From Alphaproteobacteria bacterium (GTDB lineage Bacteria; Pseudomonadota; Alphaproteobacteria; Caulobacterales; Aquidulcibacteraceae), in the NCBI GenBank assembly GCA_016124655.1, contig WGNI01000011.1, positions 64,196 to 128,195 of the forward strand: DNA of 64,000 nt, written 5' to 3'. Below the pieces are notes generated by a model. The model was not told the origin of the DNA. It was given only the letters and a program-made list of their open reading frames with translations, and made no database searches. The first letter of the stretch is position 1, and each line of letters starts with the position of its first letter. Made by a program: the position numbers and the translations under genes. Shown here piece after piece: positions 18,396-33,834 of the stretch.

Positions 18396-18409
18396 TGGCG
18401 GAGAGGGAG
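18396..18409. repeat. attL-like direct repeat (TGGCGGAGAGGGAG) identical to the last 14 nt of the tRNA-Ser gene at 25691-25704
   Basis: This is an exact 14-bp match to the tRNA 3' end. A second degenerate copy (tggcggagagtgaagga) lies at 18318-18334. It marks the left boundary of the lower-GC island. Confidence 0.6.
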
Positions 18410-18541
18410 TCCGACGACAGCCCTTATTTTTCAAGGGTTGCGAGGTGATGACGACTGCGTACCCACGTCGCAACCCACGTTAACTGCGCCTTCCCGTCGC
18501 CGTTTGCCAGCGCGCGCCGATGACTCGCAACTAAATGGTAA

Positions 18542-18982
18542 GTGAGGCTTGCTACCAAAGGCTGTGGCGACGCGGGGGAGCCGACAGTGTTTTGGCGCAG
18601 TGTGATTCCAGCGATCCTGCTGGTTGCGACAGCAACGGGCGCTGCGGCGTTACCTGCAACTACTTTGTCTTGTGCAGGAACCGTCTCTGTTCGCGGATAT
18701 CAAGACCTTCCCTACGCTGGTGTGGTTGTGACCGTCGAAGAGGATGCGGTCGTTATTGAGAACCTGCCGAGCCTAAGTGGCACATGGCCCATTTTCCGAG
18801 CAACAGACCATCTGATCACAGTCTTGTCGGCCACGACGAGCGGCGGCCAAGTTCAAGCCAGCTTCAACAGGTTAAGCGGCGACATGTGGATTATGGCGTC
18901 GAACTCGCCCGTGGGCCGCCTCCCCACCAGAGAAGAGATGCGATTCTCTGGACGATGCGCCCGAGCGGAACGGATTTTCTGA
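18542..18982 (+). CDS. Hypothetical secreted protein (island cargo)
   Basis: It has a signal-peptide-like segment (WRSVIPAILLVATATGAAALPA) and no recognisable domain. The start is uncertain, with a GTG near 18587 possible. Confidence 0.35.
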   Translation: MRLATKGCGDAGEPTVFWRSVIPAILLVATATGAAALPATTLSCAGTVSVRGYQDLPYAGVVVTVEEDAVVIENLPSLSGTWPIFRATDHLITVLSATTSGGQVQASFNRLSGDMWIMASNSPVGRLPTREEMRFSGRCARAERIF

Positions 18983-19030
18983 ACCCTCAAGATCGTCCCG
19001 CTTGCCAGGCAGGCATGTAATGGTCGTCGG

Positions 19031-19417
19031 TCAGAACATAGGCCCGGTGCATTGCCCGTTTAGCATCTGACCGTGGCATGTCGGATGATATGCGCGCTGC
19101 TCAACTATGGTTCCGTGGCACTGCCCGTTCACGATGGCACCTACGCACTCGTCAGGGCTGTAAACCGTCGTCGAGTTTTGAACGGCAACCGCACCGGGAC
19201 GCATTGTTTCCGACTGCGCCTGCGCGGAACGATGTTCGCCAGCAGAAAACGCGCAGGCTTCGCGTACTGCGCTAAATATGAGGAGCGCGCTTTGACAGGC
19301 ACCGCCCTGCGAGCGTGCCGTCTCCTTCCCAGGGGCGGGAGAACTCGTCGAAGCGCAGGAAGCAAGACTCAGCGCTGCCAAGCTCGTAACTAAAATACAA
19401 ACGCTTGACCTACGCAT
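19031..19417 (-). CDS. Hypothetical Cys-rich lipoprotein (island cargo)
   Basis: It has a signal peptide with a lipobox (LSLASC) and a repeated NGQC(H/T)G motif. It sits in lower-GC DNA. The internal ATG at 19417 is preferred. Confidence 0.45.
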   Translation of the reverse strand: MRRSSVCILVTSLAALSLASCASTSSPAPGKETARSQGGACQSALLIFSAVREACAFSAGEHRSAQAQSETMRPGAVAVQNSTTVYSPDECVGAIVNGQCHGTIVEQRAYHPTCHGQMLNGQCTGPMF

Positions 19418-19886
19418 GTGGTTCGCCCGGTTCTTATGGATTCGATCCAACGGTGGTGTACGGCAAAGGTGTTAAATTCTCGCCCAAGTTGAAGGTGTAG
19501 ATTTCGTTTTCGCGTCTTGGCTGCGCAGCGAGGCGTAATTGTGGGGGCTTTGGGAGAGGTCCGAAAAATTGATACATATTTGGCGAGCCCGGTAGATCAG
19601 GGAAAAGCGACCTGGAATATAACCATCCCCCCGGTACCCTCGACCGATTTTTGCCACGCTCATAAAATTCCTGATCGCTTTCGCGTTGCCGAGTCCAGGC
19701 AGCGCCGTTCGGCTGCGTGGAAAGGGGAGGCAGCGGACAACGGGGCGAACCGCACGCAGCGCCACCCTATGCCGTTCAACGCGAACGTTCACAGAGCGAC
19801 GAACTTTCTTTCGTACAACACAGCTCGCGCAGATCGTGGGTTAAGCCGTGGGTTGGACACTGAGGCGGCAGCGCGGGCCTTATAGA

Positions 19887-20390
19887 TCAAGGCTTGATGG
19901 CGGACGCCTGATCCGACGACGGATACGTTACGTCGTTAAACTCAGCGTCGATGGCCTCGTTGGCAAACTCCACCGGACGGCCCGCCTTTAAATCTTCAAG
20001 CGCTTCGAGCAGCGCCTCGGCGCTATTGTCGATAACGGCGACTGCACTCCGCGAAACGGTCACGATGCCAGCTTTTTCCAAAAGCTCCTTGGCCGCCGCG
20101 AGGCGCACGCTTTCATTGCGCGCATTTCGAGCGAGGGCGAGGATCGTGTCGAACGCGACGTTGGTGGCGGACACGAAGCGCTTCTGCACTTCCTCTTTCA
20201 ACACCTTCTGAATGCGGTCAGACCCAAGCAGGATCGCGGCGGAGCGTTTGGCGTCTTCATCGGACGTGGCGAGGCCCGCGCGCTTCGCCGCCTCAGGACC
20301 GTCTTCGGGACGGCCGCCAAGCTCCAAGTAGTGCGCGAGGAATTGCGACTGCGCCGGGTTCAGATTGGCGATGGTAAGCGAGCGAGACAT
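19887..20390 (-). CDS. terS: Phage terminase small subunit (TerS, Terminase_2-like)
   Basis: The N-terminus (LTIANLNPAQSQFLAHYLELGG...AAKRAGLATSDEDAKRSAAILLGSDRIQKVLKEE) fits the Terminase_2 small-subunit pattern (LT.kQe.F..eYl..gN...AA..AGYS...A...g..LL.n..I...I). Confidence 0.6.
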   Translation of the reverse strand: MSRSLTIANLNPAQSQFLAHYLELGGRPEDGPEAAKRAGLATSDEDAKRSAAILLGSDRIQKVLKEEVQKRFVSATNVAFDTILALARNARNESVRLAAAKELLEKAGIVTVSRSAVAVIDNSAEALLEALEDLKAGRPVEFANEAIDAEFNDVTYPSSDQASAIKP

Positions 20391-20618
20391 GGCGAAGGCG
20401 ATCAGCGGTTAGAGCGAGACAGAATTTTTCACGGACACGGAGCGTGCGGCGCGCACGCCCAGCGGTGCAGGCGCATGGAGGCAGGAGCAAGCGACCAAAC
20501 ACTGGCGGGCGCGGCGTCTTATAACCTTTCGGGGAGGTGTATTACGGCCGGTCTGAAATGTGCTGCGGGCGCGCGCTTCCAGCGCCGCAAGCACATAGGG
20601 GGTATGGGGGTTGAGACT

Positions 20619-20712
20619 ACCCCCTGGTTTTTCCCCGGTTTTGGGCATTTTGGCTCCGGTTTTGGGCAGGGTTTTGGGCAGGGTTTTTCCCCGGTTTTTC
20701 CCCGGTTTTGGC
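20619..20712. repeat. Iteron-like tandem repeat array (GGTTTTGGGCA / GGTTTTTCCCC units at about 11-bp spacing), a putative replication origin
   Basis: At least seven helically phased GGTTTT-containing repeats lie immediately downstream of the primase-helicase gene 3' end, in the position where PICI and SaPI origins are found. Confidence 0.55.
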
Positions 20713-20734
20713 CTTATAACCTGGGCAAACAGCA

Positions 20735-22738
20735 TTAGCTCGGCCCTCCGGTTTGATGGGTTTCTCCGGTTTTCTTCGCGCGCCGCGCCAGCTCTTTCGC
20801 CATCGTTTCGTCGCTCGGATAGTAGCCAGCGCTCATGCGTTTATCGCCGCGCACGTAGCGCAACTGTCCTGCGTCCAGCGCAGCGCGAAGCTCCTCTTTG
20901 ACCGCCTTCGACGTGAGCTTTTTCGCCAGCTCTTTTTCAAGCTGATTCAGAACGGGGCCGTCAATGTTGCGCTGGACGGTGAACGGCAGCCCCAACTCAG
21001 CGGCTTGCGTGGCGGCGCGCACGACAGCTTCGCGCATCGCGGTGGCGTCCTGCGCGGCCGTGGGCACAACCGCAGTGGGGATCAGCGCGCCTCTGTAAAA
21101 GCGCAGCTTGATCGGCTCGCCCTTGCGACCGTGGTTGCGCTTTTCGACGGTCAGAACGAACTCATCTTCCTTGTTCTCGTTCGCCTCGATCTTTAAGCGG
21201 GAGCGCGCGGCGTTGCGCCAGGCAACCGACCAACCGTCCATTTCACCGCGACTGCTCCCAGCCTGCGACGGATGCCACGGCATTATGATGGTGCAGTCGC
21301 CTTTATCGCATATGCCTTGAAGAACGACCTTGATAAACAGGTTCACGCTGTCTTCGTCGATTTTTCCGTGACCTTTAAAGCGAACAAAGTCGTAAGCGCT
21401 GTCGAGCACCAAGACTTTATGGCCGGGGATGCTTTGCAAGAGCGAAAGCAGCTCGTGATAAAACGGCCGCAACGTGCAGTCCGCGCTCTCGCCCATGATC
21501 GCCAACGCGCTGTCTTTGCCCTTGCGAGCGAGGAACACGCCTCCCGCGTAGGGAGTGTCAGGCGTAGGCTTGGAGGGCGGCGGCAGCTCCAACACGTCGG
21601 CGATGGCCTGCGCACGGCGCGCAAGTTCATTTTCGTCGTCTTCGGCGCTCACATACACCATCGTCGCCTGCGCCGGAGGCGGATCGCACTTGATGCCGAA
21701 CGGAGGCGCGCCGACGTTCAGCGCCATCGCCCATTGCTGCGCAAGACGGCTTTTGTGGTTTCCACCCGGCGCACAAAGGAACGTGACAATGCCTTTCTCC
21801 AAGAGCCCGGTAATAAGCTCCTGCACCGGATGAACCTTGCGCCCCAGCATGTCGAACGCGGAAATCGTGTCACCCGGCTCAGAATGCGGACGCTCGCCCA
21901 GCGCCGGGGTGGAGAGGATCAAATCGCAAAGCGCATCCGCGCCATAAGAAACGAGGAAATCGTCAGCGCCGACTTTGTGCGGCTTCCCTTTCGCATCGAC
22001 CTGATTAGAAGGCGGGATGCGAACGCAATGAACGCGCGCGCCCTGCAACGCCAGCAGCGTCGCAAGACGTTGTTCAGCGCGCTCCACATTGGAGTTGGTA
22101 GCGATGTCGCTGTCGAAGAGGATGCAAACGTCAGTAAACTGCGCCACCACCGTAGCGAGATCGGGATGCAGCGCGTGCGAGGCGGACTTGCTCTCGCGCA
22201 CATTGTCCACGCCACCGATGGCGACACACGGAATGCCGACCTTGCAGAGCGCAGCCGCTTTCTTCTCGCCCTCTACAACGCATACAGCGCCTTCGGGCAA
22301 AATCGACGGCGCAAGGGCTCGCGGGAAGTAGATTTGCGAACCGCTTCCACGCGGCGCGTCGTATTTGCGCCCATCCTTGGGCAGCGATTTGCCGAGAACC
22401 GGAAGGTAGCGAGGACGCACATAGGGCACGCCAACGCCGGTCAGATCGTAGCTAAGCGGCGCTCCATCCATACGAAGATAAGGGATGATGATGGCCGGAT
22501 GCTGTGCGAAATCGGGATGAACAGTGCTGGCGTCGTCCACCAAATACATCCCGTTCGCCTGCGCATCTGCAAGCGTGAGCCCGCTACGCGCCAAGTCATT
22601 CTTGGCAAGCGCCAGCGTCACGCCGCTGCATTCGCCGTCATTGGCGGACGCACGGAGGCGCGTGACGTTGATGTTCGACGGGTTGTCCGCCATATTGGTT
22701 TCCGTCATCGCGTAAGTGATCCGTGTCTTTCGGCGCAT
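20735..22738 (-). CDS. Primase-helicase (toprim/DUF3854-like N-terminal domain plus AAA_25/RepA-like P-loop NTPase)
   Basis: It has a toprim-like segment (VVEGEKKAAALCKVGIPCVAIGGVDN), a P-loop with a deviant Walker A (LCAPGGNHKS), and a Walker B (VLVLDSAYDF). It is 667 aa, the typical size of P4-alpha and PICI Pri-Rep proteins. Confidence 0.6.
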   Translation of the reverse strand: MRRKTRITYAMTETNMADNPSNINVTRLRASANDGECSGVTLALAKNDLARSGLTLADAQANGMYLVDDASTVHPDFAQHPAIIIPYLRMDGAPLSYDLTGVGVPYVRPRYLPVLGKSLPKDGRKYDAPRGSGSQIYFPRALAPSILPEGAVCVVEGEKKAAALCKVGIPCVAIGGVDNVRESKSASHALHPDLATVVAQFTDVCILFDSDIATNSNVERAEQRLATLLALQGARVHCVRIPPSNQVDAKGKPHKVGADDFLVSYGADALCDLILSTPALGERPHSEPGDTISAFDMLGRKVHPVQELITGLLEKGIVTFLCAPGGNHKSRLAQQWAMALNVGAPPFGIKCDPPPAQATMVYVSAEDDENELARRAQAIADVLELPPPSKPTPDTPYAGGVFLARKGKDSALAIMGESADCTLRPFYHELLSLLQSIPGHKVLVLDSAYDFVRFKGHGKIDEDSVNLFIKVVLQGICDKGDCTIIMPWHPSQAGSSRGEMDGWSVAWRNAARSRLKIEANENKEDEFVLTVEKRNHGRKGEPIKLRFYRGALIPTAVVPTAAQDATAMREAVVRAATQAAELGLPFTVQRNIDGPVLNQLEKELAKKLTSKAVKEELRAALDAGQLRYVRGDKRMSAGYYPSDETMAKELARRAKKTGETHQTGGPS

Positions 22739-22773
22739 CCAGAAGCCCGCCGCGCCAACGGTGGGTTGTTGTT

Positions 22774-23229
22774 TTAGAGACGATACCCGGCCGCTGGGTC
22801 AGGACGCCTTTGCGGGAGATTGATGTAAGCGTTCGGGGTGCCGCGCCCGTTGTGCATTGCGCGCCTCACGCGCAACCCCAAATGAAGCGCGGCGGCGATA
22901 AGCATTCCATTGGCGACGTAGCTGTTGCCTTGGTAGGTCGCGGCAAACCAGCGTTCGACTTCATGCTTGTAGCCGTAAGACGTAGCGTGACGGTTCAGCG
23001 AGGCCGTGGGCTTCATTAAGCTCAACCACGCGATGGCTTTCTCGAACTCTTGGCACGAACTTTCCGTAAGCGCATCGGCGCGCATCGCCGCCAGATCGTC
23101 CGAAGGCCGAAATTTCCCGAAGCCGTATGAACTCAGCTCGGGCTCGCGTTCCAAGATCGCCGCGACCTCCGCGCGAACGTCTTCAACAGGGCGATACTCA
23201 AATACGGGGAGTTGGGAACGGCTGTTCAT
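22774..23229 (-). CDS. Hypothetical protein (island)
   Basis: 151 aa with no recognisable domain. Its start codon overlaps the alpA stop (ATGA), implying translational coupling. Confidence 0.4.
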   Translation of the reverse strand: MNSRSQLPVFEYRPVEDVRAEVAAILEREPELSSYGFGKFRPSDDLAAMRADALTESSCQEFEKAIAWLSLMKPTASLNRHATSYGYKHEVERWFAATYQGNSYVANGMLIAAALHLGLRVRRAMHNGRGTPNAYINLPQRRPDPAAGYRL

Positions 23230-23447
23230 TAGGCGGCTCCCTTCACCTGCGTCCGAGGGAGAGAAGCAAACCAGCGCTCGGCGCTTTCACGCGTGATGCG
23301 CGTGGCCGCACCAATTTTGACGCGCTCAACAGCGCCGGTTTTCATCAGCTCGTAGGCTTTGGTGTGTCGAACTCCGTAGAGAGCGCAAAACTCCTCCACG
23401 GTGTAGGCCAACGGTTGTTTGGCAAGGCTCAGCATCGTGTTCTCCAA
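23229..23447 (-). CDS. alpA: AlpA-family excisionase / transcriptional regulator (HTH)
   Basis: It is 72 aa with HTH sequence (YTVEEFCALYGVRHTKAYELMKTGAVERVKIGAATRITRESAERW), typical of AlpA/Xis proteins of P4-like and PICI elements. Confidence 0.65.
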   Translation of the reverse strand: MENTMLSLAKQPLAYTVEEFCALYGVRHTKAYELMKTGAVERVKIGAATRITRESAERWFASLPRTQVKGAA

Positions 23448-23544
23448 GATCGCTAGCGGGTTCGCCTAGCTTCGGGGGAACACATGCGGCTTTGCGCGAA
23501 TGCGATCCATGAAACGAACGCCTTCGCTTCAAGGAATCGTTCGT

Positions 23545-24303
23545 TCACATGCCTTTGAGCCAACCTTTGACGGTGCGCGGATCGCGGCCGTACTCCGACG
23601 CGCGCAGCTCCGCAAAGCTGCTTACGGTCAGATGGCGGTTCGTCCCTTGGGAAATCTTAAAGTCCGCGCGCGCTTGATCTCGCAGGCTCTGCTTCCGGCG
23701 CGCAGCACCACTCTTGGCACCTGCGGCTTTACTTCTAGATTTCCCTTCCAGGCGCTCCCCGGCCAAGTTAAAGACGCCGAGAGTCACCTGTTGGAACGTG
23801 GCCTCCGCCGTGGAGAGTGCGTAGAGCGCAGCGTCGCGCCGCCCCATCCATTCATTGTAGGTTTCGGGCCTCCACGTTTGCTGTTCACGATCGACCGTCA
23901 GAAAAACGGCGAGCGCGCCTAGCACATCGGACGCGGCCATGATTTCGGGCGGCGCGTCTAAACCCTGGTCCAAATGAAAACGGCGGGCATCATCCGCGAT
24001 GCGCGAGAGAGCTTCTAAATCGCCACCCCGCGCTAGGCCAACGAGCTTCTTGCGCGGCGCATATCCTTCTTCCAGCAACGCCGAGAGAGCCGCATCGAAT
24101 GCCGCTCGGTGCGCTTGCTGCACGGCCTGCGCGGCAGCGGGCAGCGAGGACAGGCGCTCTTGCACCGAACCGCTTAGAAACGTCGGGCTCTGTGCCGAGG
24201 CGCGTGCAATGTTTTTACGCTGCGTGTCGGCGTCACCCTCGAAAATGTCGTCAAAGGTCACGCGCTGCGCTCCCTGACTTTGCTGGCGCAGAACGCCGAC
24301 CAA
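23545..24303 (-). CDS. Hypothetical protein (island), possibly regulatory
   Basis: 252 aa with no clear domain. The track ORF overlaps the integrase 3' end, and a GTG at about 24261 would place its start immediately after the int stop codon. Confidence 0.35.
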   Translation of the reverse strand: MVGVLRQQSQGAQRVTFDDIFEGDADTQRKNIARASAQSPTFLSGSVQERLSSLPAAAQAVQQAHRAAFDAALSALLEEGYAPRKKLVGLARGGDLEALSRIADDARRFHLDQGLDAPPEIMAASDVLGALAVFLTVDREQQTWRPETYNEWMGRRDAALYALSTAEATFQQVTLGVFNLAGERLEGKSRSKAAGAKSGAARRKQSLRDQARADFKISQGTNRHLTVSSFAELRASEYGRDPRTVKGWLKGM

Positions 24304-25502
24304 GCGTCCATGAGCGCGCGACGCTTCTGGAACAAATCGCCGCGTCGGTAGGCCGCTTCAACCTTGTCACCGACAACGTGAGCCAACGCCGCCTCAGCCA
24401 CTTCGCGCGGGAAATTGGTCTTTTCCGCAGCCCAGTCGCGGAATGTGGAGCGGAAACCGTGAACCGTTTCGGCGCGCTGCATCCGGCGCAGAAGCACGGC
24501 CATCGTCGCCTGCGAGATCATTGCACCTTTGCGCATGTCGCTCGGAAAGATCAAATCGGAAGGCTCAGGATTGCCCGCCGCGTCATGGCGTTGTTTCAAC
24601 ACTGCAAGCGCAGCCTTAGAGAGTGGAACGCGATGCGTCCGGCCACCTTTCATGCGCTCAGCCGCGACGGTCCACAGCGCATTCTTGAAATCAATCTCAC
24701 CCCACGTCGCGCCAGCGGCCTCGCCGTACCGCGCCGCCGTAAGGATCAAAAACCGCAGACAGTCGGCACCAGCGCCGGTGCGATGCGAGAGCGCATCATA
24801 CAGCGCAGGCATTTGGTCGATGGGCACGGCACGATGATGCTGGACCGGCGCGAGTTTCGCACGGGAGGGAAGCGCCTTCTGCAAATGTCCACGCCACCGC
24901 GCAGGGTTGTCGCCGGTGCGATGGCCGCGCACCGCAGCCCAATCCAAAATCGTTTCGATGCGCCCGCGCAGGCGTGACGCCGTTTCCGTCTTGGTCGTCC
25001 AGATCGGATCGAGCACCCGCATAACCAAATCTTGGCTCACGTCGGCGACCGGAACGCCGCCCATGACCGGATAAGCGTAGGTAACGAGCGTGCTGCGCCA
25101 TTGCGCGCGGTGCTTGTCATTGCGCCAAGAGCCTTCATGCGCCGCGATGTAGGCTTCCGCGCACTCTTTAAACGTGAGCTGCGGCGTGCGTTCGGCTTTC
25201 GCCTCCTTCCGCGCCTTTCGGCGGGAGTCGATGGGGTCAGTGCCCGCCTTGGCGAGTTTGCGCTGAGCGAGGGCAGCGTCGCGCGCGTCGCCAAGTTCGA
25301 CCAGATCGGCGGAGCCAAGGCCCATTTCACGGCGGCGGCCATCGGCGGCGGTGTAGCGCACGATCCAAGACCGGCGCACGGCTCCGCCACGACCGATAGC
25401 CACCTGCAAGAACAGGCCGCCTCCGTCCGCATAAAGGCCGGGAGCCTTGGCCGCCGCTACCGCGCGGGCGGTTAGTTTATGGACGCCTCTCGCCATGCCC
25501 AA
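24258..25502 (-). CDS. int: Tyrosine-type site-specific integrase (P4-type, with DUF4102 N-terminal arm-binding domain)
   Basis: The catalytic R...HxxR...Y residues are present (HGFRSTFRDWA, AAYRRGD). It lies directly beside the 3' end of tRNA-Ser. Confidence 0.85.
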   Translation of the reverse strand: MGMARGVHKLTARAVAAAKAPGLYADGGGLFLQVAIGRGGAVRRSWIVRYTAADGRRREMGLGSADLVELGDARDAALAQRKLAKAGTDPIDSRRKARKEAKAERTPQLTFKECAEAYIAAHEGSWRNDKHRAQWRSTLVTYAYPVMGGVPVADVSQDLVMRVLDPIWTTKTETASRLRGRIETILDWAAVRGHRTGDNPARWRGHLQKALPSRAKLAPVQHHRAVPIDQMPALYDALSHRTGAGADCLRFLILTAARYGEAAGATWGEIDFKNALWTVAAERMKGGRTHRVPLSKAALAVLKQRHDAAGNPEPSDLIFPSDMRKGAMISQATMAVLLRRMQRAETVHGFRSTFRDWAAEKTNFPREVAEAALAHVVGDKVEAAYRRGDLFQKRRALMDAWSAFCASKVRERSA

Positions 25503-25690
25503 ACGCTGTGCAAAACCCTCGCCAAACTGCGAACCGGGATTCTAACTCACCGCCTCCACCCACGAATTTGGGGTGACTTGCGACGAAGTTCAGCGATCCG
25601 CTGCGAAGGAATATAGCGTAGGAAAACCTTGTTTTACAGAGGTTTGATAAGGATTTTCCGAAGGGCTACGAAGTGGAACGAATGCGGAAC

Positions 25691-25780
25691 TGGCGGAGAG
25701 GGAGGGATTCGAACCCTCGATACCCGTGAAGGTATTCCGGTTTTCGAGACCGGCGCGATCGACCACTCCGCCACCTCTCC
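25691..25780 (-). tRNA. tRNA-Ser (anticodon CGA), type II with a long variable arm
   Basis: A minus-strand cloverleaf (GGAGAGGTGGCGGAGTGG...CTCGAAA...GGGTTCGAATCCCTCCCTCTCCGCCA). The anticodon loop CUCGAAA gives anticodon CGA. The 3' end encodes CCA. Confidence 0.8.
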
Positions 25781-25846
25781 GTGCGGTCGCCTGCCGGCGG
25801 GTCGAGCCGGGCTGCATACGGCAAGGGGGGGCGAAGGGGAAGGGGG

Positions 25847-28800
25847 CTAGGCGGCGCGGCGTGCGGCGAAGCGACCGCCATCGAGGGCGACCACCCGGCC
25901 ATACTTGGCCAGCGTGGTCAGCACCTCGGCAATGCGCTTTTGGCGCGCCTCGCTGGTCTTGCCCTTGAAGAGGCGCGCCAGGGCCGCCGCGTCGAGCGGC
26001 TGGCCGTGCGCGGCCAACGCAGCCTCGATGGCGAGCGGCTGCTCGTAGCGATCCTTCGGAAACGCGGGCAGCGCGGCCGTGAGTGGTTCTTCGGCCTCGG
26101 CGAAATCTAGATCGCCGGTTCGCGGCGCAGGCGCCGTCTTGGCGAAGCGCGGGATCTGATACTCCGGCCGCAGCCAGCGAACAAAGCCTTGGGCTTCTTC
26201 CCTGGCGGGCTCGGTATTGAGCGCGACGAGGCGTTCAAGAATTTGTTCGTCGCTGAGATCGGCGGGCCAGCCATAGGCTTCCGCGGTCGCCGCATCGATC
26301 TGATTGTGCAAGTCCTTCAGCACCAGCACGAGCCCGCGCGTCTTCACGTCCTCTTCCGCTGCGCTGAGCGTCGCGCCCGCTTTGACCTTTTCCAGTACGT
26401 TGTAGAGGCCTGTCAGCGTGAGATCGGAATGTTCGGCCTGCACGCGCTTGCGCGTGGCGTCGAGTTCTTCGCCAAGCGCGCGCAGCTTGGCTTTGAGCGG
26501 CTCCGGCGGATCGGGGAAGGGGAAGGGATCGAAGCAGGTTGTTTTGACATAGACCGGCCTGTCCTCGAGCAATCCGCCGACATGAGATGTCCAGGCAAGG
26601 TGTGGCTTCGACGAGAGAATAGCTAAGTGTGCTCCGTCTCCGTTCGCGATCACAATGAGCTTGTTGTCCGGAACGATTTCCGCTTCGAGAAACTGAAATG
26701 TGCGGTGTTTCGAAGTTTCGATCGTCGCGATGTAGCGCGGCAATCCTTCAAGGGCAGGACGCAGGTCCCGCCGTGGCTCGCCAAAGACCCACCAATTGGT
26801 TTTGTAGCTCTCGCGATTGTTTTGATCGCGCTCCGGCTTCACCCGCGCGAGGACGTGTTGATACACTTCCGGAAATCGCTGGCGCGCTCCTCCGCGCTCA
26901 ACCCGAAAAGATCGATCACCATAACATCGCGCGAATGGCCAGTGAGATCGCGGCCGTTGCGATAGGGGCGGATGTGGCGCTCAAGCCCGGCGCGATTGCC
27001 CAAGCCCAGAAGCGCCGCTTCCGCAGGCGTCACGATGAAGCCGGCTCCCATCAATTGAACGCCCCGAGAGCAAAGGCCGCGACCCGCGTTCAACGGTTGC
27101 GTACTCGTCAGGTCGATTCCAACACTCAAATCCGCATTGATGCGCCCCATCGAAAGCTTGAAGTCAATTTTCGGCTCATCCGTATCGATGTCGCGTTCGG
27201 AGACCGCCTCCATCAGCCGCCCGAATGTCGGTTCCGCCTGCGCGACGCTCATGGCGATGCGCACGGCGGCGCTGTCTTTGGTCGCCTTGGTCCAGGGTTG
27301 ATCCGGAATCGCGAACACCAGGCAGAGCGGATTCTTGGCGGCGAGGTGGCGCTCGATCACGCGGCGCTGAAACACCTGGCTGATCGAATTGGTGGTGACG
27401 AGCCCGAACCGGCGCAACGCGGTTTGGTCGCGGCGCAAAACGTCCGCCGCGCGATCCCACCAATACATCACGTAATCGGCGCTCTCATTCATGTGCGGAT
27501 GCGCGGCCCACAGCGCTTCGGCATAGCCGGGCTCACTGCGCGAGCGAATATCCTTGCCGCCGATAAACGGCGGATTGCCGACGATGAACTCGGCTTCCGG
27601 CCAGGCGGGGCGGCGGGGATTGGGGTAGTGCTCGGTGCGAACTGCTCCCCCGTTCACGGGGGAGCTGTCAGGCTGCGAAGCAGGCTGACTGAGGGGGCTC
27701 GCCTGCTCACTCCCCCCTCCGGTCGCTGCGCGACCACCGCCCCCGTGAACGGGGGAGGAGTTGGTCTGCACCGCCGGCACAGGAAACCCATCCCAGGTCA
27801 ACACGGCGTCATAGCCCTCGCGCTTGCCGAAATTGATGTTCTCGAACGCGCGCAGGATCGGCTCTTCGGGATGCGCCGTCGTATTGCGATAGTGCCATTG
27901 CAGATAGCCGATCCACACCACGAGTTCAGCGATGGCGGCGGCGCGCGGATTCAGCTCAAGGCCCAGAAATAAATGCGGGTCGACCGTGAGGTTCTTGAGC
28001 GCAAGCAGGCCTTGTTCGTCGCCCAGCTTGGTCAGCGTCTCCAGCACTTCGCCTTCGAGCTGCTTCATCAGTTCGAGCGCGACGTAAAGAAAATTGCCCG
28101 TGCCGCAAGCCGGATCGAGCACGCGCGTGTGCGTCAGCTGATCGTGGAACGCGCGGACGATGGCGATCGCCTTGCCGTCTTCTCCTTCGTCCTTGGCGAT
28201 TTCCGCCTTGGTCAACGCCGCTTCCCAATCGGCCCGCAACGGCTCCATGACGGTGACTTCGACGAGGCGTTGCACATAGGCGCGCGGCGTGTAGTGAGCG
28301 CCCAGTTTCTTGCGTTCCGCTGGATCCAGCGCTTGCTCCAACAGCGTGCCGAAGATAGCCGGGTCGACTTCCCGCCAGTCGGCCTTCGCCGCGCGAAGCA
28401 AGACGCCGATCTCTTCCTTTTTCAGTTGAAAGGCCGTGGTGTTCTTGAAGAGGCCGCCATTGAAGTGCCGCACGCGCGCTTCAATCACATGGCTGAACTC
28501 GACGCCCTTTTCCATGTCGCTCCAGAGCTGCTTCAAGCGCAGGGTGAACGTCTCGGGATTGTCGACGCACTTTCGAAGCAGGTCACGAAAACTCTCTTTC
28601 GGCAAAAGCCCAGTGTCTTCCGCGAACATCGTGAAGAGGCACCGCATCAGGAAATGCGCGACATCTTCCGCGTGATTTCCGCGGTCTTCCAGCGCCTTGC
28701 TGACCTCCGCCAGATATCCTGCGATCTCTCGCGTAACGCGGACCGCTTTCTTCGCCGGATCGAGACCATGTGGATCCGTCCAGATCGCTTTAAGGAGGTC

Positions 28801-29358
28801 GCGCGTTCTTTCGTTGCGTAAGTCTTCCAGAAAGAGTCGATATCCATTGCGATCGGGAAACTGCGTGTAGGCGCGCCCTGTGCCGGTGAAGTCGGCGTAC
28901 AATTCGAAACAATGCCCAACATCGCAGACGATGATGAAAGGCGGCGCCGTGTGGTTGGAGTCGAGCAGGAAGACGTAGCCTTCCGCCTGCTTGCGCGCAT
29001 TGCGCATCATGACGTCCCAGCCGCGTTGCGCTGTGCGCTCGCCCTGCGGCGATTCATTGAACAGCGCCATTTGGCCGGGGAGGGCGTTCTTGCTGCCCGG
29101 GAGGCGGGATTGTTTGGCCTCGAGGATGAAGCAGTTGCGCTTATAGATGTCGATGCGCTTGGGGTTGGTCGCGTCGGCGCTTTCGCGCGGCCTTACAGGG
29201 CGTTCGAAGGTATAGTCTCCCCCGTCGCCGCCGACCGCCGCATCGGGGCGGTCGACCGCGATCACATCGCAGAGTTCGTACAGGAAACCGACATAGTTCG
29301 CCCGCTCGGCGCCATGGCTCGATTTCCACTTGGCGATGAATGTCTCGATATCCGTCAC
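25847..29358 (-). pseudogene. MmeI-family type IIL restriction-modification enzyme (N-terminal PD-ExK nuclease plus gamma-class N6-adenine methyltransferase plus TRD), split by a frameshift near 26860-26875
   Basis: The 839-aa and 339-aa ORFs overlap at 26839-26866 in different frames, and together they align colinearly with MmeI. Shared motifs are D...EAK, AHYTP, DPACGTGNFL (motif I), NPPF (motif IV), and the C-terminal FDPFPFP...GLYN. Confidence 0.65.
27645..27758. repeat. In-frame 114-bp palindromic insertion inside the RM gene
   Basis: Two hairpin-forming units (ctcccccgttcacgggggag and cccccgtgaacgggggag) in inverted orientation flank further palindromes. The segment encodes a low-complexity peptide (SSPVHGGGGRAATGGG...SSPVNGG) just before the NPPF motif. 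Confidence 0.5.
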
Positions 29359-29458
29359 GCCGCCTCCCAGCGCCGCAACTCTAAGGGGAGAATTCCCCCC
29401 AAATCCACCCCGACCCCGGTTGACCCTGCTTCCCCATTCCGGCTATATCGCCGGCTCC

Positions 29459-29495
29459 CCGCCCGGGCGCCGTCCGGGCGGCCCTTTATTTTTGG
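29459..29495 (+). promoter_or_regulatory. Terminator-like hairpin plus T-tract in the rplU leader (putative attenuator)
   Basis: The hairpin gcccgggcgccgtccgggcggc followed by cctttattttt ends about 10 nt before the rplU start. Confidence 0.4.
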
Positions 29496-29504
29496 CGAAG
29501 AACC

Positions 29505-29819
29505 ATGTTTGCGGTGATCAAAACCGGCGGAAAGCAATATCGGGTCGCGGCGGGCGATGAGATCGTGGTCGAGAAGATCGACGGCGAGCCCGGCGCGTCC
29601 GTGTCGTTCAGCGACGTGCTGATGGTCGCCGACGGCGCCAAGGTCACGGTCGGCGCCCCGCGCGTCGCCGGCGCCTCGGTCACCGGCGAGCTCGTGGCCA
29701 CGGCCAAGGGCGAGAAGGTGGTGGTGTTCAAGAAGCGCCGCCGCTCGACCTATCGCCGCAAGAACGGCCATCGCCAGCTGGAAAGCACGGTCAAGATCAC
29801 GGCCATCCAAGCCGGCTGA
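29505..29819 (+). CDS. rplU: 50S ribosomal protein L21
   Basis: The sequence MFAVIKTGGKQYRV...GEKVVVFKKRRR is an unambiguous L21. Confidence 0.9.
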   Translation: MFAVIKTGGKQYRVAAGDEIVVEKIDGEPGASVSFSDVLMVADGAKVTVGAPRVAGASVTGELVATAKGEKVVVFKKRRRSTYRRKNGHRQLESTVKITAIQAG

Positions 29820-29886
29820 TTTGTAAGGTTTCAGTCCCGTCTTCGCCCCATTCGCGGGCCACAAGACTGCCAACGGAGCACGCGCC

Positions 29887-30156
29887 ATGGCGCACAAGAA
29901 AGCAGGCGGTTCCTCTCGCAACGGGCGCGACTCGCCGGGTCAGCGCCTCGGCGTGAAGCGCTTCGGCGGCCAGCGCGTTCTGGCCGGCAACATCCTCGTG
30001 CGGCAGCGCGGGACCAAGTTTCACCCCGGCCGCAATGTCGGCTGTGGCCGCGACTATACCCTGTTCGCTTTGGTGGACGGCGAAGTGACCTTCGCCACCA
30101 AGCGAAACGGGCGGACCTTTGTATCCATCCTTCCGGCCGCGATGGCGGTCGAGTAG
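29887..30156 (+). CDS. rpmA: 50S ribosomal protein L27
   Basis: The sequence [28 protein letters not shown]...QRGTKFHPG is an unambiguous L27. Confidence 0.9.
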
Positions 30157-30223
30157 GCGGCGGGTTGTTCAATCCGGGCCGCCTGGCGTTTCTCAAGGCG
30201 GTTCGGTTCGGTGCTTTATGCGC

Positions 30224-30258
30224 GGGGGAGCCGGGTCGCCGGCTCCCCCGTTTCGTTT
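30224..30258 (+). terminator. Rho-independent terminator after rpmA
   Basis: The hairpin gggggagccgggtcgccggctccccc is followed by gtttcgtttc. Confidence 0.55.
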
Positions 30259-30300
30259 CGGGCGGCGCCAACCATCCCCGCGATGACGGTGGAGGCGCAT

Positions 30301-30855
30301 ATGCGCACGACGATTGAGACCGAACGTTTGACGCTGCGCCCCCTGGCGCTGAGCGACGCCAAGCGCGTGTCGGCCTTCACCTCCGACATCGACGTAGCGC
30401 GCATGGTCGGCTCCATTCCCCACCCCAACCCGGTCGCCGCGGCAGAGGGCTTCATCCAGATCATCCGCGCGCGCGCGGCCATGGCGAAGGACTACGTCTA
30501 CGCCATCGACCTGCCGGGCGAGGGCTTGATCGGCGTCGTCGGCGCGCATCGCAAACGCGCCAATGACATGGAGATCGGTTACTGGATCGGCCGGCCCTAT
30601 TGGGGCAAAGGCTTCGCCACCGAGGCGGGCCGCGCCGTCGCCGGCGCAGCGCTACGCCTAGGCCCAGTGACCGCGACGCACTTCGTCGACAACGAAGCGT
30701 CCGGTCGCGTCTTGGAAAAGATCGGCTTTGCCTATACCGGCGAGATCGAGCCGCGCTTCGCGATGGCGCGCGGCTGCAACGTCGATGCGCGCTTGATGAT
30801 GCTGCTCGCGCAGGACGCAGCGATGCGCCGCCGCATGGGGCTTCACGCTTCGTAA
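30301..30855 (+). CDS. GNAT family N-acetyltransferase (RimJ/RimL-like)
   Basis: It has the ERLTLRPLALSDA pattern and a GNAT core (GYWIGRPYWGKGFATEA). The ATG at 30301 is preferred; the track ORF starts upstream of the terminator. Confidence 0.65.
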   Translation: MRTTIETERLTLRPLALSDAKRVSAFTSDIDVARMVGSIPHPNPVAAAEGFIQIIRARAAMAKDYVYAIDLPGEGLIGVVGAHRKRANDMEIGYWIGRPYWGKGFATEAGRAVAGAALRLGPVTATHFVDNEASGRVLEKIGFAYTGEIEPRFAMARGCNVDARLMMLLAQDAAMRRRMGLHAS

Positions 30856-30984
30856 TATTTTTCTGTCTTCCGCAGGGAAATGTTTTTGCATACGGTGAAG
30901 CGCTTTTGATCGCCTTGTGTCCCGGTTCGCTGAATCCGGGCTGGCGCGCGCTCTTTGAGTTTGCGTGTTCCGCGATCGGGAGTT

Positions 30985-31058
30985 GGTGATGTAGCTCAAT
31001 GGTAGAGCGTCCGGCACGCGCCGGAAGGTAGAGGGTTCGATACCCTTCATCTCCTCCA
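30985..31058 (+). tRNA. tRNA-like gene with a non-canonical anticodon arm; identity unresolved (tRNA-Gly(CCC)-like D and T arms)
   Basis: It has a GTAGCTCAATGGTAGAGC D-arm, a GAGGGTTCGATACCCTT T-arm, and a CCA end. The anticodon stem TCCGG/CCGGA encloses only a 6-nt loop (CACGCG), and the acceptor stem has one T-T mismatch. Confidence 0.45.
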
Positions 31059-31133
31059 AACGACTAGCTCAGGTGGGTAGAGCACAAGACTGCTAATCTT
31101 GCTGTCGGAGGTTCGATTCCTCTGTCGTTGACC
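31059..31133 (+). tRNA. tRNA-like gene with class I (short variable arm) structure but a Ser-type anticodon loop CUGCUAA (anticodon GCU)
   Basis: It has a TAGCTCAGGTGGGTAGAGC D-arm, anticodon stem CAAGA/TCTTG, T-arm GGAGGTTCGATTCCTCT, and acceptor 3' strand GTCGTTG-A-CC with no encoded terminal A. Its 5' end abuts the previous tRNA, so nt 31058 would have to be shared. Confidence 0.45.
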
Positions 31134-31166
31134 GTTCGGCTGTAAACCGAACTTTTTGATCTGGGA
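31134..31166 (+). terminator. Rho-independent terminator after the tRNA-like pair
   Basis: The hairpin gttcggctgtaaaccgaac is followed by ttttt. Confidence 0.65.
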
Positions 31167-31423
31167 GGCCGGCTGCTTCCCGGCTCTTGCGCGGAACGCA
31201 AAGCTTCGGCCGAGCGGGAATCGCAAGGGCAAACGTCGATGACGCTTTGCGCCGGTGCGGATTCCGCGCCCGTGAGAGCGTTCTCGCTGAGGGCCCCGCA
31301 CGATTTCGCGCTCCGGCGCGGATCGTTGCGCAGCCCGAATGCGGATCGCTTTCGCAGACGCTTAAGCATCGGCCCGCGTCGCGGCGTGGGCGGCGGCCGG
31401 TCAACCTTTACGGATAAAGTGCT

Positions 31424-32578
31424 ATGAAAAGGCCATTGCTGATTTTTGAAGCGATTGTTCGCGACGACGAACGCGGCTTGCTGTCGCGCAACGGAAAGTT
31501 TGAGCGCCTCGTCGAACCCGGCGTATTCCGCGCCTTTGATCCCGGCAACCGCGTGTCGCTGGAGATCGTCAAGGTCGTGCGCACCGAAATGCCGGTGGAG
31601 CGCATGCTTCTGCTCGCCCGCGCGAAGCCGGAAGTCGAACGGGCGTTCACGCTTGTGCGCACCGGTCCCAGCGAAGTGGCGATCGTGTCGTTCGACGGCG
31701 AGCCGCGCCACGTGGTGACGCCGAACATGGCGCGCGCCTTCTGGTCAGTCGTGACCGACGTGACGGTCGAGCGCATCGACACGTCGGCGGAGCTGCGCGT
31801 GTCCAGGAAGCACCTCGACATGGTCAACGCCTCGGCCACGCCCAGCATCGTTTCAGCGCTCGTTGAGCCGTATGAAGCAGCGCTTCTCATCGTGGATGGG
31901 GAAGTCAAGGAGCGTCTGTCGCCGGGTCAGCACGCCTTCTGGGGCGTGAAGCGAACGGTGCGGATCGCCAAGATGGACATGCGTCCCACGCCGCTCGAAG
32001 TGACGGCGCAGGAGATCCTGACCAAGGATCGCATCGCCATTCGGGTGACGTTGACGGCGTTCTACCGCATCACGGCGCCGGAAACCGCGGCGGTCGCGGC
32101 GGCCGACCTCGCCAACACGATCTATCGGTTGGTGCAGTTCGCCATCCGCGAAGCCGTCGCGGCGCGCACCTTGGACGACATCCTTGCGGCGCGCGATTCC
32201 ATCGATTCCGAGGTGCGCGCGTTCGTGCGTGAGCGCGTCGCAGCGCTTGGCGCGGAAATCGGCGATATCGGCGTGAAGGACGTGATCCTTCCCGGCGATA
32301 TCCGCGACCTCTTGAACAAGGTCGTGGAGGCCGAACGCGTCGCCAAGGCCAACCTGATCCGTCGTCAGGAGGAAACCGCGGCCACGCGCTCCTTGCTGAA
32401 CACGGCGAAGATGATGGATGACAATCCCTTGCTGCTTCGGCTCAAGGAATTGGAGGCCTTGGAGCGCCTGGTGGAGAAGGTGGGCCGCATCGATCTGCAC
32501 GCAGGCCAGTCTGGCGGTCTGCAGGCGCTTCTGAGCGATCTCTATCGCTTACGCGGCCCCGATGGCGATCAAGCGTAA
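31424..32578 (+). CDS. SPFH (band-7/stomatin/slipin-like) domain protein with an N-terminal extension
   Basis: The C-terminal half shows an SPFH pattern (VTAQEILTKDRIAIRVT...AFYRI...) followed by a coiled-coil region. Confidence 0.55.
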   Translation: MKRPLLIFEAIVRDDERGLLSRNGKFERLVEPGVFRAFDPGNRVSLEIVKVVRTEMPVERMLLLARAKPEVERAFTLVRTGPSEVAIVSFDGEPRHVVTPNMARAFWSVVTDVTVERIDTSAELRVSRKHLDMVNASATPSIVSALVEPYEAALLIVDGEVKERLSPGQHAFWGVKRTVRIAKMDMRPTPLEVTAQEILTKDRIAIRVTLTAFYRITAPETAAVAAADLANTIYRLVQFAIREAVAARTLDDILAARDSIDSEVRAFVRERVAALGAEIGDIGVKDVILPGDIRDLLNKVVEAERVAKANLIRRQEETAATRSLLNTAKMMDDNPLLLRLKELEALERLVEKVGRIDLHAGQSGGLQALLSDLYRLRGPDGDQA

Positions 32579-32668
32579 TCAAAACTCACGGCCCGCCGCG
32601 TTCATACGAACGTGGCGGGCTTTTTGTTTTCGCGCGACGCCTCGCGCCTGCGCATGATAGATGGGCGC

Positions 32669-33172
32669 ATGACCAACATCATTCCCGCGCGCATGGCCGC
32701 AAAGCTCGATGGCGACTTCGTCGTCTTTCTCATCGGCATGCGCGTGAACAAGTGGTGGAAGGTCTGGAAATGGGCGCCGGTGGCGGCCTCCATGCCGCGC
32801 ATGCTGATCGAGCTTGGGCGGCGCCCGGAATTGGGCTTGCTGCACGCCAGAACATTTTTTGGGTTCCCGAACATATTCGTGCTGCAGTACTGGCGCAGCT
32901 TCGAGCACCTGCATCGTTATGCGGTGGACAAAAGCCTCGCGCACCTGCCGGCTTGGCGCGCCTTCAATCGCGCGATCGCCTCCAATGGCGATGTCGGCAT
33001 CTGGCACGAAACCTATCTTGTGAAGGATGGCGCGCACGAAAGCGTCTACAACAACATGCCGCCCTGGGGACTTGCAGTGGCCGGGGAGTCCGTGCCCGCC
33101 GAGGGCTCGCGCAAAAGCGCCAAAGGCCGCCTGCGTCAGACCGACGGCGCCGATCAACCGATCGACGCATAG
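32669..33172 (+). CDS. DUF4188 domain protein
   Basis: It has the VVFLIGMRVNKWWKVW pattern. The ATG at 32669 is preferred. Confidence 0.45.
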   Translation: MTNIIPARMAAKLDGDFVVFLIGMRVNKWWKVWKWAPVAASMPRMLIELGRRPELGLLHARTFFGFPNIFVLQYWRSFEHLHRYAVDKSLAHLPAWRAFNRAIASNGDVGIWHETYLVKDGAHESVYNNMPPWGLAVAGESVPAEGSRKSAKGRLRQTDGADQPIDA

Positions 33173-33834
33173 GCCGCGCGCACCGCGGCTTCAAACTCAG
33201 GCATGATCGGCGCGTAGCGTTTGGATACGGCGGCCAACGTGTCCGGCGCGGCGCTTGCCGGCGACCCGCCGGGGAAGGGCGGCGCCGGATCGTATTCGAT
33301 CGCCAATTGCACCGCGCGCGCAAGCCGCTCGCCGGCGATCTCCGCCATCAGCGTGAACGCGAAGTCCACGCCCGCCGTCACGCCGCCGCCGGTGAACACG
33401 TTGCCGTCGCGCACCACGCGCGCCGCCACCGGCGTCGCGCCGACCAGCGGCAACAGCGCGCGATAGGCCCAATGCGTCGTAGCGCGCTTGCCCATCAATA
33501 GCCCCGCGGCGCCGAGCAGAAATGCGCCCGTGCAGACCGAGGTGACATACCGCGCTCCCGCCGCCTGCCGGCGAAGGAACCCGATGAGCTCCGCATCTCC
33601 CATCGCCTCGCGCACGCCAAAGCCGCCAGGCGCACACACAACGTCAAGCGCAGGACAGTCCGCGAAGGTGGTCGTCGGCATCAGGCCCAACCCGCAGTCG
33701 CTCGGGACCGCGTCGCGGGACGCCGCAACGATATGGGTCTGCGCGTCCGGCATGCGGTGCAGCACCTGCAGCGGCCCGGTAAAATCGAGCTGCGTCACAT
33801 TGGGAAACAGCACAAAGCCGATCTGAAGCGTCAT
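33154..33834 (-). CDS. DJ-1/PfpI family protein (paralog of the gene at 1210-1875)
   Basis: It has the VCTGAF nucleophile elbow and a YDPAPPFPGGSPA tail. Confidence 0.65.
   Translation of the reverse strand: MTLQIGFVLFPNVTQLDFTGPLQVLHRMPDAQTHIVAASRDAVPSDCGLGLMPTTTFADCPALDVVCAPGGFGVREAMGDAELIGFLRRQAAGARYVTSVCTGAFLLGAAGLLMGKRATTHWAYRALLPLVGATPVAARVVRDGNVFTGGGVTAGVDFAFTLMAEIAGERLARAVQLAIEYDPAPPFPGGSPASAAPDTLAAVSKRYAPIMPEFEAAVRAAYASIG

What the first reader, a model, noticed from the sequence alone, without database searches (positions are those of the whole stretch)
25847..29358. Frameshift-split MmeI-family type IIL restriction-modification gene directly across the tRNA from the satellite
The 839-aa and 339-aa ORFs align colinearly with MmeI in the order nuclease D...EAK, AHYTP, DPACGTGNFL, NPPF, then C-terminal FDPFPFP...GLYN. 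They overlap by 28 nt in different frames. The switch maps to a gccagcgatttccgg stretch around 26860-26875. This could be an inactivated defence gene, a sequencing error, or phase variation of a defence system. Its position beside an integration hotspot suggests a defence island sharing the tRNA-Ser locus.
Basis: partly seen in the sequence, partly recalled or inferred. Interest (0 to 1): 0.6.

Follow-up and report, generated by a model that had tools for sequence, protein, structure and literature searches.

The report
Frameshifted MmeI-type restriction-modification pseudogene
This is a single-protein restriction-modification (phage defence) gene of the well-known MmeI family, recently broken by the loss of one base; it also carries an in-frame palindromic repeat, and broken genes of this family have been described before, so it is an ordinary case.

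Summary
Minus-strand ORFs 26839-29358 (839 aa) and 25847-26866 (339 aa) overlap by 28 nt. Together they form one MmeI-family (Type IIL/IIG) gene: one PADLOC profile is matched at positions 2-802 by ORF1 and 803-1136 by ORF2. Homologues are single ORFs of about 1125-1145 aa.

It lies inside the N-terminal half of the target-recognition domain. There is no homopolymer, simple repeat or slippery heptamer there, so phase variation and programmed frameshifting are unlikely. A second assembly (Logan, SRR10063240) is 100% identical over 8.4 kb including the site, which argues against assembly error.

dN/dS against the intact orthologue is about equal before (0.10) and after (0.12) the break, so the inactivation is recent.

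The "defence island at tRNA-Ser" idea is not supported. A Hyphomonadaceae MAG has the intact gene in the same rplU-MmeI-tRNA-Ser slot without the integrated element, and that element carries no PADLOC-recognised defence gene.

Morgan et al. 2009 already reported disrupted MmeI-family genes. Interest is low.

The parts
26839..29358 (-). 5' part of the disrupted MmeI-family gene (839-aa ORF). It holds the PD-ExK nuclease, helical spacer, gamma-class m6A methyltransferase and first part of the TRD, followed by a 15-aa out-of-frame tail (26842-26886) and a TGA stop.
   Evidence: A GGGAGG Shine-Dalgarno sequence lies 6 nt upstream of the GTG start.
25847..26866 (-). 3' part of the same gene in the -1 frame (339-aa ORF as listed). 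It holds the rest of TRD-N, TRD-C, the FPFP motif and the long C-terminal helical region.
   Evidence: MmeI_TRD positions 137-206; PDLC03627 positions 803-1136; colinear to the C-terminal RRAA of the homologues.
26885..26893 (-). Inferred site of the 1-nt deletion (GCGGA-GGAGCGCG). The orthologue reads AGC GCC GAC GAG GTT CGC CAA.
   Evidence: No SSR, homopolymer or slippery heptamer is present.
27640..27762 (-). 123-nt (41-codon) in-frame palindromic insertion (aa 533-573, NSSPVHGG...SPVNGGAV), 21 residues upstream of motif IV NPPF. It has 28-nt terminal inverted arms and a four-hairpin, REPIN-like architecture.
29113..29157 (-). Nuclease catalytic motif D70...E80-A-K82 (RIDIYKRNCFILEAK), intact.
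   Evidence: Residue roles come from PMC4833311 and PMC2731913.
28087..28116 (-). Methyltransferase motif I, DPACGTGNFL, intact.
27565..27576 (-). Methyltransferase motif IV, NPPF, intact.
26513..26533 (-). FDPFPFP, the family's 'FPFP' motif that marks the end of the TRD. It lies downstream of the frameshift.
   Evidence: PMC2731913, section 23.
25691..25780 (-). tRNA-Ser(CGA) immediately downstream of the gene. Its 3' end is the attachment site of the neighbouring integrated element (context).
18396..25704 (-). Context: a roughly 7.3-kb integrated satellite-like element bounded by 14-nt direct repeats (18396-18409 and 25691-25704). It encodes a P4-type integrase, a DUF3854/AAA_25 primase-helicase and a small-terminase-like ORF. 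It is not part of the R-M gene.
29505..30156 (+). Context: rplU-rpmA, divergent from the R-M gene. The same neighbours occur in the orthologous locus L002.

Best explanation
This is a chromosomal MmeI-family (Type IIL/IIG) restriction-modification gene. Its intact form would be a single polypeptide of about 1129 aa without the insert, or 1170 aa with it. The order of parts is PD-ExK nuclease, helical spacer, gamma-class N6-adenine methyltransferase, shared target-recognition domain (TRD) and C-terminal helical region.

In this genome, a metagenome-assembled alphaproteobacterium, one base has been lost inside the N-terminal TRD subdomain. Translation therefore ends after 824 native residues plus 15 out-of-frame residues. 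The product lacks the end of TRD-N, all of TRD-C and the C-terminal region. In this family one TRD directs both cleavage and methylation, so both activities should be lost together, with no cost to the host (inferred).

Everything else in the gene is intact and still bears the mark of purifying selection, so the lesion is recent. The state is a plain pseudogene that one base insertion could repair, not a regulated switch.

The gene also carries a 123-nt in-frame REPIN-like palindromic insertion. It lies in a length-variable segment just upstream of methyltransferase motif IV. Whether the insertion came before or after the frameshift is unknown.
For: Shown:
- The two ORFs abut on one profile, at positions 802 and 803 of PDLC03627.
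- Pfam finds the four MmeI domains.
- Homologues are single ORFs of 1125-1145 aa with up to 81-84% identity.
- 78 of 80 related loci have an open frame of at least 1050 codons.
- The orthologous DNA shows a 1-nt gap.
- The break aligns to roughly MmeI residue 690 (my reading of the alignment). That lies within TRD-N (residues 621-745), upstream of base-contact residues 723-810.
- D70/E80/K82, motif I, motif IV and FPFP are intact.
- dN/dS against the L002 orthologue is 0.097 upstream and 0.115 downstream, with dS about 1.
- There is no SSR, homopolymer or slippery site in the 142-nt stretch where both frames are open.
- A second assembly of SRR10063240 is 100% identical over 8378 nt and calls the same 839-aa product.
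- No intact allele more than 84% identical was found among 5.8 billion clusters.
- The ORFs are absent from NCBI proteins while the neighbouring genes are present, which is consistent with a pseudogene call.
- Precedent: three characterised MmeI-family enzymes had disrupted genes in their hosts and were reactivated by repairing the lesion (PMC2731913, section 27).
Against: - The source is a MAG, and I could not inspect reads.
- The Logan contig probably derives from the same or a sibling read set, so it is independent only as an assembly.
- A minor intact allele in the population cannot be excluded.
- Loss of activity is inferred from the MmeI structure and has not been measured.
- Low dN/dS downstream would also be expected if the second ORF were still in use.
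Confidence: 0.8

Rival explanations
1. Sequencing or assembly artefact: the real gene is intact and the missing base is an error in the MAG consensus.
For: The source is a metagenome assembly. A single-base indel is the smallest possible error. The rest of the gene looks fully functional, with dN/dS of 0.12 downstream.
Against: The Logan assembly of SRR10063240 gives a contig 100% identical over 8378 nt, including the site. The context GCGGAGGAGCGCGCC has no homopolymer longer than 2, and short-read consensus indels are rare in such contexts (general knowledge). No intact near-identical protein exists in the 15-billion-protein collection.
Confidence: 0.08
2. Phase variation or a population-level ON/OFF switch: the frameshift is a reversible state of the defence system.
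For: Phase-variable R-M systems exist (general knowledge). Morgan et al. speculated that inactive but easily repaired MmeI-family alleles may coexist with active ones in populations.
Against: There is no homopolymer of 5 or more, no SSR and no tandem repeat at or near the site. The only tracts of 5 or more in the gene lie at 29223 and 28422 or inside the palindromic insert. Reversion would need an ordinary point insertion. Only one allele is seen.
Confidence: 0.04
3. The gene is functional as it stands. Either a -1 ribosomal frameshift restores the full-length protein, or ORF2 is translated separately (its in-frame GTG overlaps the ORF1 stop as GTGA) and the two pieces assemble.
For: Both frames are open over 142 nt (26841-26983), so a -1 shift anywhere there would fuse the ORFs. 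A GTGA start/stop overlap is present at 26839-26842, and Logan's gene caller used that start. ORF2 shows low dN/dS.
Against: There is no X XXY YYZ slippery heptamer in the dual-open stretch. I saw no Shine-Dalgarno sequence before either candidate ORF2 start on reading the sequence. The split falls inside the TRD-N subdomain, not at a domain boundary. No homologue among the 120 best hits or the 80 loci shows a conserved split at this point. The low dN/dS is explained by a recent lesion.
Confidence: 0.05

Closest known systems
MmeI family of Type IIL (Type IIG) restriction-modification enzymes, long-form branch such as RpaB5I (1184 aa); MmeI structure 5HR4
   Same: - The five-part architecture and its order are the same, as is the PD-ExK triad at the same residue numbers (D70/E80/K82).
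- Gamma-class motifs I (DPACGTGNFL) and IV (NPPF), a TRD ending in FPFP and a C-terminal helical region are all present.
- There is direct sequence homology to MmeI (E=8e-37).
- The repaired length of 1170 aa falls within the family's 908-1184 aa range.
   Different: This copy is interrupted by a 1-nt deletion in TRD-N and carries a 41-aa palindrome-encoded insertion before motif IV. Its recognition sequence and activity are unknown. It is only 81-84% identical to its nearest database relative.
Naturally disrupted MmeI-family genes reported by Morgan et al. 2009 (NAR 37:5208, PMC2731913)
   Same: The gene is otherwise undegenerated and inactivated by a simple lesion that can be located by alignment to family members. 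It could presumably be reactivated by repair.
   Different: Those cases were shown experimentally to regain activity after repair. Here nothing was tested, and a second alteration (the 123-nt insert) is present.
REPINs (REP doublets forming hairpins) and Rickettsia palindromic elements or other MITEs that insert in frame into coding genes
   Same: - The 123-nt insert consists of two inverted units that fold into one long hairpin (-83.9 kcal/mol, z=-7.1).
- Each unit has a conserved CCCCCG-N4-CGGGGG hairpin and a second hairpin with a variable stem, followed by a G-run.
- 13 of 18 units have a perfect second-hairpin stem of at least 5 bp on a GAA or GCA triloop, with 11 different stem sequences.
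- At least nine unrelated metagenome contigs carry the same four-hairpin architecture (eight of them give the other 16 units).
- Like RPEs, the insert sits in frame in a protein-coding gene without stops. In-frame MITE and RPE insertions are documented (papers listed; general knowledge).
   Different: No other copy occurs in the 64-kb window. No RAYT or transposase was looked for. There is no Rfam family for it. I did not test sequence relatedness to Rickettsia RPEs or Pseudomonas REPINs.

Membership tests
MmeI family (Type IIL R-M) | N-terminal PD-(D/E)XK nuclease with conserved D70, E80 and K82 (MmeI numbering) | tested here: met
   RID70IYKRNCFILE80AK82 is invariant in alignment A1. Pfam MmeI_N has E=5e-23.
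MmeI family (Type IIL R-M) | Helical spacer between the nuclease and the methyltransferase | tested here: met
   Pfam MmeI_hel at residues 231-304, E=2.4e-18. This region aligns to MmeI residues 180-300.
MmeI family (Type IIL R-M) | Gamma-class N6-adenine methyltransferase with motif I (DPACGxGxFL) before motif IV (NPPF) | tested here: met
   DPACGTGNFL at residues 415-424 and NPPF at 595-598. Pfam MmeI_Mtase has E=8e-30. A 41-aa insertion lies between them.
MmeI family (Type IIL R-M) | TRD directly after the methyltransferase, ending at the FPFP motif, then a C-terminal helical region | tested here: met
   Pfam MmeI_TRD, FDPFPFP in ORF2 and PADLOC profile positions 803-1136. The TRD is split between the two ORFs.
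MmeI family (Type IIL R-M) | All functions in one uninterrupted polypeptide | tested here: not met
   A 1-nt deletion splits the gene into 839-aa and 339-aa ORFs. This copy is therefore a family member by descent but a pseudogene.
MmeI family (Type IIL R-M) | AdoMet-dependent cleavage about 20/18 nt from an asymmetric site, with host protection by methylation of one strand only | not testable with these tools
   This is a biochemical property. It needs expression of the repaired gene or methylome data.
Phase-variable R-M gene | A simple-sequence repeat or homopolymer tract at the frameshift site | tested here: not met
   Regex and TRF scans find nothing at 26841-26983.
Programmed -1 ribosomal frameshift | A slippery heptamer X XXY YYZ in the stretch where both frames are open | tested here: not met
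   None found in 26841-26983.
REPIN / REP-like element (for the 123-nt insert) | Two inverted repeat units that form one long hairpin, recurring as a family | tested here: met
   The arms are 28 nt and 89% complementary. The fold has z=-7.1. The same architecture occurs in 10 metagenome loci.
REPIN / REP-like element (for the 123-nt insert) | Many copies in the same genome and a cognate RAYT transposase | tested here: inconclusive
   There is only one copy in the 64-kb window. The rest of the MAG was not available, and RAYT was not searched for.
Defence island at a tRNA integration hotspot | The gene lies within the mobile or variable segment and is absent from, or variable in, the same slot in relatives, with other defence genes clustered nearby | tested here: not met
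   The gene is on the 5' side of the tRNA, outside the att-bounded element. The same slot is occupied by the intact orthologue in L002, which has no integrase there. PADLOC finds no other defence gene in the element.

The most novel reading that the evidence does not exclude
The 123-nt insert may represent an undescribed, widespread family of four-hairpin, REPIN-like palindromic elements in free-living Alphaproteobacteria. Like Rickettsia palindromic elements, such elements could land in frame in surface loops of proteins and be tolerated. An intact homologue (P0007) carries a related shorter hairpin insert at the same codon position with shared flanks. The frameshifted allele would then be one state of a population that keeps inactive but single-step-repairable MmeI alleles, as Morgan et al. 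speculated.
Probability: 0.2. Interest if true: 0.4.

Novelty: new member of a known kind. Interest (0 to 1): 0.15.

Why it matters
It matters little beyond annotation. It is one more naturally disrupted MmeI-family gene, a state already documented for this family. It could be repaired in silico or in vitro to recover a possibly new restriction specificity, since its TRD is about 82% identical to that of the nearest relative.

It also corrects the picture of the locus. The R-M gene is a resident, syntenic chromosomal gene and not cargo of the tRNA-Ser-integrated satellite.

The only mildly unusual point is the in-frame palindromic element inside the methyltransferase domain. It adds a free-living alphaproteobacterial example to the short list of palindromic repeats embedded in coding sequence.

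Tried and rejected
- **AlphaFold2 of the repaired protein.** I ran it with the 15-sequence alignment. Mean pLDDT was 51.9, with residues 461-776 and 834-949 below 50. This is too poor to place the insert or the break in 3D, so I ran no fold search.
- **RNAalifold on 16 half-units of the palindromic element.** MAFFT could not align the second hairpin because its length varies. Only the invariant first hairpin was recovered and no covariation was counted. I replaced this with a per-unit stem scan.
- **Rfam, at E<=1 on the region and at gathering thresholds on the whole window.** Nothing matched on the insert.
- **NCBIfam.** It gave only weak hits far below cut-off (BREX PglX, MAD2) and has no specific model.
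- **Genome-collection scan.** The source genome is not among the species representatives, so no conspecific strain could be compared. Only one syntenic relative (L002) was found. Homologues at 65% identity or less sit in unrelated contexts.
- **Open-frame test for other copies of the element.** It was uninformative because high-GC DNA has long spurious open frames.
- **Ideas considered and rejected.** These were phase variation, programmed frameshifting, split subunits and membership of a defence island. The reasons are given under the rival explanations and the membership test.
Full report
**1. Observation**

On the minus strand there are two ORFs, 26839-29358 (839 aa, GTG start) and 25847-26866 (339 aa). 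They overlap by 28 nt in different frames.
- Pfam places MmeI_N (residues 3-225), MmeI_hel (231-304) and MmeI_Mtase (401-703) in the first ORF. It places the last third of MmeI_TRD (profile positions 137-206 of 207) in the second. All hits are above the gathering scores.
- One PADLOC Type IIG profile of 1136 positions is matched at positions 2-802 by ORF1 (1064 bits) and at 803-1136 by ORF2 (410 bits).
- phmmer against PDB finds only MmeI (5HR4, E=8e-37). The alignment is colinear and runs across the break.

**2. Where and what the lesion is**

A protein made by adding one base finds 8000 homologues. The best full-length ones are single ORFs of about 1125-1145 aa. The closest is 81-84% identical (P0001, a Hyphomonadaceae MAG).
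- The alignment switches frame at ...VIDLFGLSAEE | ARQRFPEVYQHVLARVKPERD....
- The orthologous DNA reads AGC GCC GAC GAG GTT CGC CAA CGT. The window reads AGCGCGGA-GGAGCGCGCCAGCGA, with a one-base gap.
- The deletion therefore lies within about 26885-26893.
- Both frames are open from 26841 to 26983. This stretch has no X XXY YYZ heptamer, no homopolymer of 5 or more, and no simple or tandem repeat.

**3. Is it real?**

The window is part of a 219-kb contig of a MAG labelled 'Alphaproteobacteria bacterium'. Its neighbouring proteins are MBI1252175.1 (L21) and MBI1252178.1 (slipin).
- The two MmeI ORFs are not among NCBI proteins. That fits a pseudogene call in the deposited annotation.
- A Logan assembly of run SRR10063240 yields an 8378-nt contig that is 100% identical to window 25752-34129 and encodes the same 839-aa product. 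SRR10063240 is a New Zealand metagenome, listed among hot-spring metagenomes with the label 34.5 in PMC7692377.
- The Logan contig ends inside tRNA-Ser, about 50 nt from the att repeat.
- This is an independent assembly, though probably not independent reads. Together with the non-repetitive context it makes an artefact unlikely, but I could not see pileups.
- No intact allele closer than 84% exists in the protein collection.

**4. Consequence**

In the MmeI structure paper the TRD is residues 621-825. TRD-N is 621-745 and TRD-C is 746-825, and the base contacts come from residues 642-810. The C-terminal bundle follows.
- By my reading of the alignment, the break corresponds to roughly MmeI residue 690, inside TRD-N.
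- The 839-aa product keeps the nuclease triad D70/E80/K82 and methyltransferase motifs I and IV. It loses part of TRD-N, all of TRD-C, the FPFP motif and the C-terminal region.
- In this family one TRD serves both cleavage and methylation. I therefore infer that both activities are lost together.
- No other lesion is present. ORF2 runs colinearly to the homologues' C-terminus.
- Nei-Gojobori dN/dS against the intact orthologue is 0.097 for the 783 aligned codons upstream and 0.115 for the 346 downstream, at dS of about 1.
- The break is therefore young relative to the divergence of the two genomes.

**5. Context**

The L002 locus (Hyphomonadaceae MAG bins.64) is colinear with window 38794-25687. 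It shares the same gene order: slipin, a tandem pair of tRNA-like genes, the GNAT acetyltransferase gene, rpmA, rplU, MmeI and tRNA-Ser(CGA).
- Its MmeI gene is intact, and housekeeping genes without an integrase follow its tRNA.
- In the window a roughly 7.3-kb element lies between 14-nt direct repeats, CTCCCTCTCCGCCA on the minus strand, at 25691-25704 (the tRNA 3' end) and 18396-18409.
- The element encodes a P4-type integrase, a DUF3854/AAA_25 primase-helicase and a small-terminase-like ORF. PADLOC finds no defence gene in it.
- The R-M gene is on the 5' side of the tRNA, outside the element.
- More distant homologues sit in unrelated places, for example between ftsK and lolA. The family is mobile over long times but resident in this lineage.
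- The 'defence island sharing the tRNA-Ser locus' reading is not supported.

**6.

Relative to L002 and most homologues, the window gene has exactly 123 extra nt (27640-27762; 41 codons, aa 533-573). They lie in a length-variable segment 21 residues upstream of NPPF.
- It is a near-perfect palindrome with 28-nt arms that are 89% complementary.
- It folds at -83.9 kcal/mol, with z=-7.1.
- The terminal hairpin CTCCCCCGTKMACGGGGGAG occurs in at least 120 metagenome stretches.
- At least nine unrelated contigs carry the whole two-unit architecture. Each unit has hairpin A, then hairpin B, then a G-run; the two units are inverted and separated by a spacer.
- Across 18 units, hairpin B has a perfect stem of at least 5 bp closed on a GAA or GCA triloop in 13 units, with 11 different stem sequences.
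- This looks like a REPIN/REP-like family. It is not in Rfam.
- An intact homologue, P0007, has a shorter hairpin-encoding insert at the same position. The flanks PAV[Q/R]T and EHYPN are shared with the window. The loop therefore tolerates such inserts or attracts them.
- Which came first here, the insert or the frameshift, cannot be told. An in-frame length has about a 1 in 3 chance by itself.

**7. Comparison with what is known, and verdict**

Every sequence-level defining feature of the MmeI family is met except the uninterrupted ORF. The enzymology is untestable here.
- Morgan et al. 2009 reported that three of the MmeI-family enzymes they characterised are encoded by disrupted genes in their hosts. 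They located the lesions by alignment and restored activity by repair. They discussed inactive but repairable alleles in populations.
- Among 80 related loci from species-representative genomes, 78 have an open frame of at least 1050 codons and two may be disrupted.
- The finding is thus a correct but ordinary observation: a recent, single-base pseudogene of a known defence enzyme family.
- Confidence in this reading is 0.8. Assembly error is about 0.08, a functional split or programmed frameshift about 0.05, and phase variation about 0.04.
- Interest is 0.15. The small residual interest lies in the in-frame palindromic element.

Noticed in passing
window 27640-27762 (- strand): A 123-nt in-frame palindromic (REPIN-like, four-hairpin) insertion lies in the methyltransferase domain of the MmeI gene. 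It is absent from the orthologue. The same architecture occurs in at least nine unrelated metagenome contigs, with variable-stem GAA/GCA-triloop hairpins. It is not in Rfam.
   Followed up: partly
L202 (JAUPWY010310619.1), within about 1820-2030; protein P0007 aa 529-551: An intact 1144-aa homologue has a shorter hairpin-encoding insert (CTCTCCCCCGAGAGGGGGAGAG...GAGGGGGGAG) at the same codon position as the window's insert. The flanking residues PAV[Q/R]T and EHYPN are shared. This is either the same old insertion partly deleted or a hotspot.
   Followed up: partly
window 30985-31055 and 31058-31131 (+); also L002 8232-8379: Two tandem tRNA-like genes both score as tRNA in Rfam (53 and 57.5 bits). 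ARAGORN gives the first a 6-nt anticodon loop ('tRNA-???'). It calls the second tRNA-Ser(GCT) at only 76 nt, without the long variable arm expected of bacterial tRNA-Ser. The pair is conserved in the Hyphomonadaceae relative.
   Followed up: no
window 18396-25704: The roughly 7.3-kb integrated element at the 3' end of tRNA-Ser(CGA) has 14-nt att repeats. It encodes a P4-type integrase (24258-25502), a DUF3854+AAA_25 primase-helicase (20735-22738) and a small-terminase-like ORF (19887-20390; phrog_2538, E=1.6e-7). This is a satellite-like gene set. PADLOC detects no defence gene in it.
   Followed up: partly
window 25373-25466 (-): ARAGORN's 94-nt 'tRNA-Ile(TAT)' lies inside the integrase ORF and gets no Rfam tRNA hit at gathering score. 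It is probably a false positive.
   Followed up: partly
L014 (Aliidongia MAG) and L056 (uncultured alphaproteobacterium): Among 80 related loci, these two have a longest open frame of only 712 and 1035 codons over the MmeI homologue. They may be further disrupted copies, or contig-end or start effects.
   Followed up: no
window 26839-26842 (-): The ORF1 stop TGA overlaps an in-frame GTG of ORF2 (GTGA). Logan's gene caller used this as the start of a 331-aa product. I saw no Shine-Dalgarno sequence upstream on reading the sequence, so it is probably fortuitous.
   Followed up: partly
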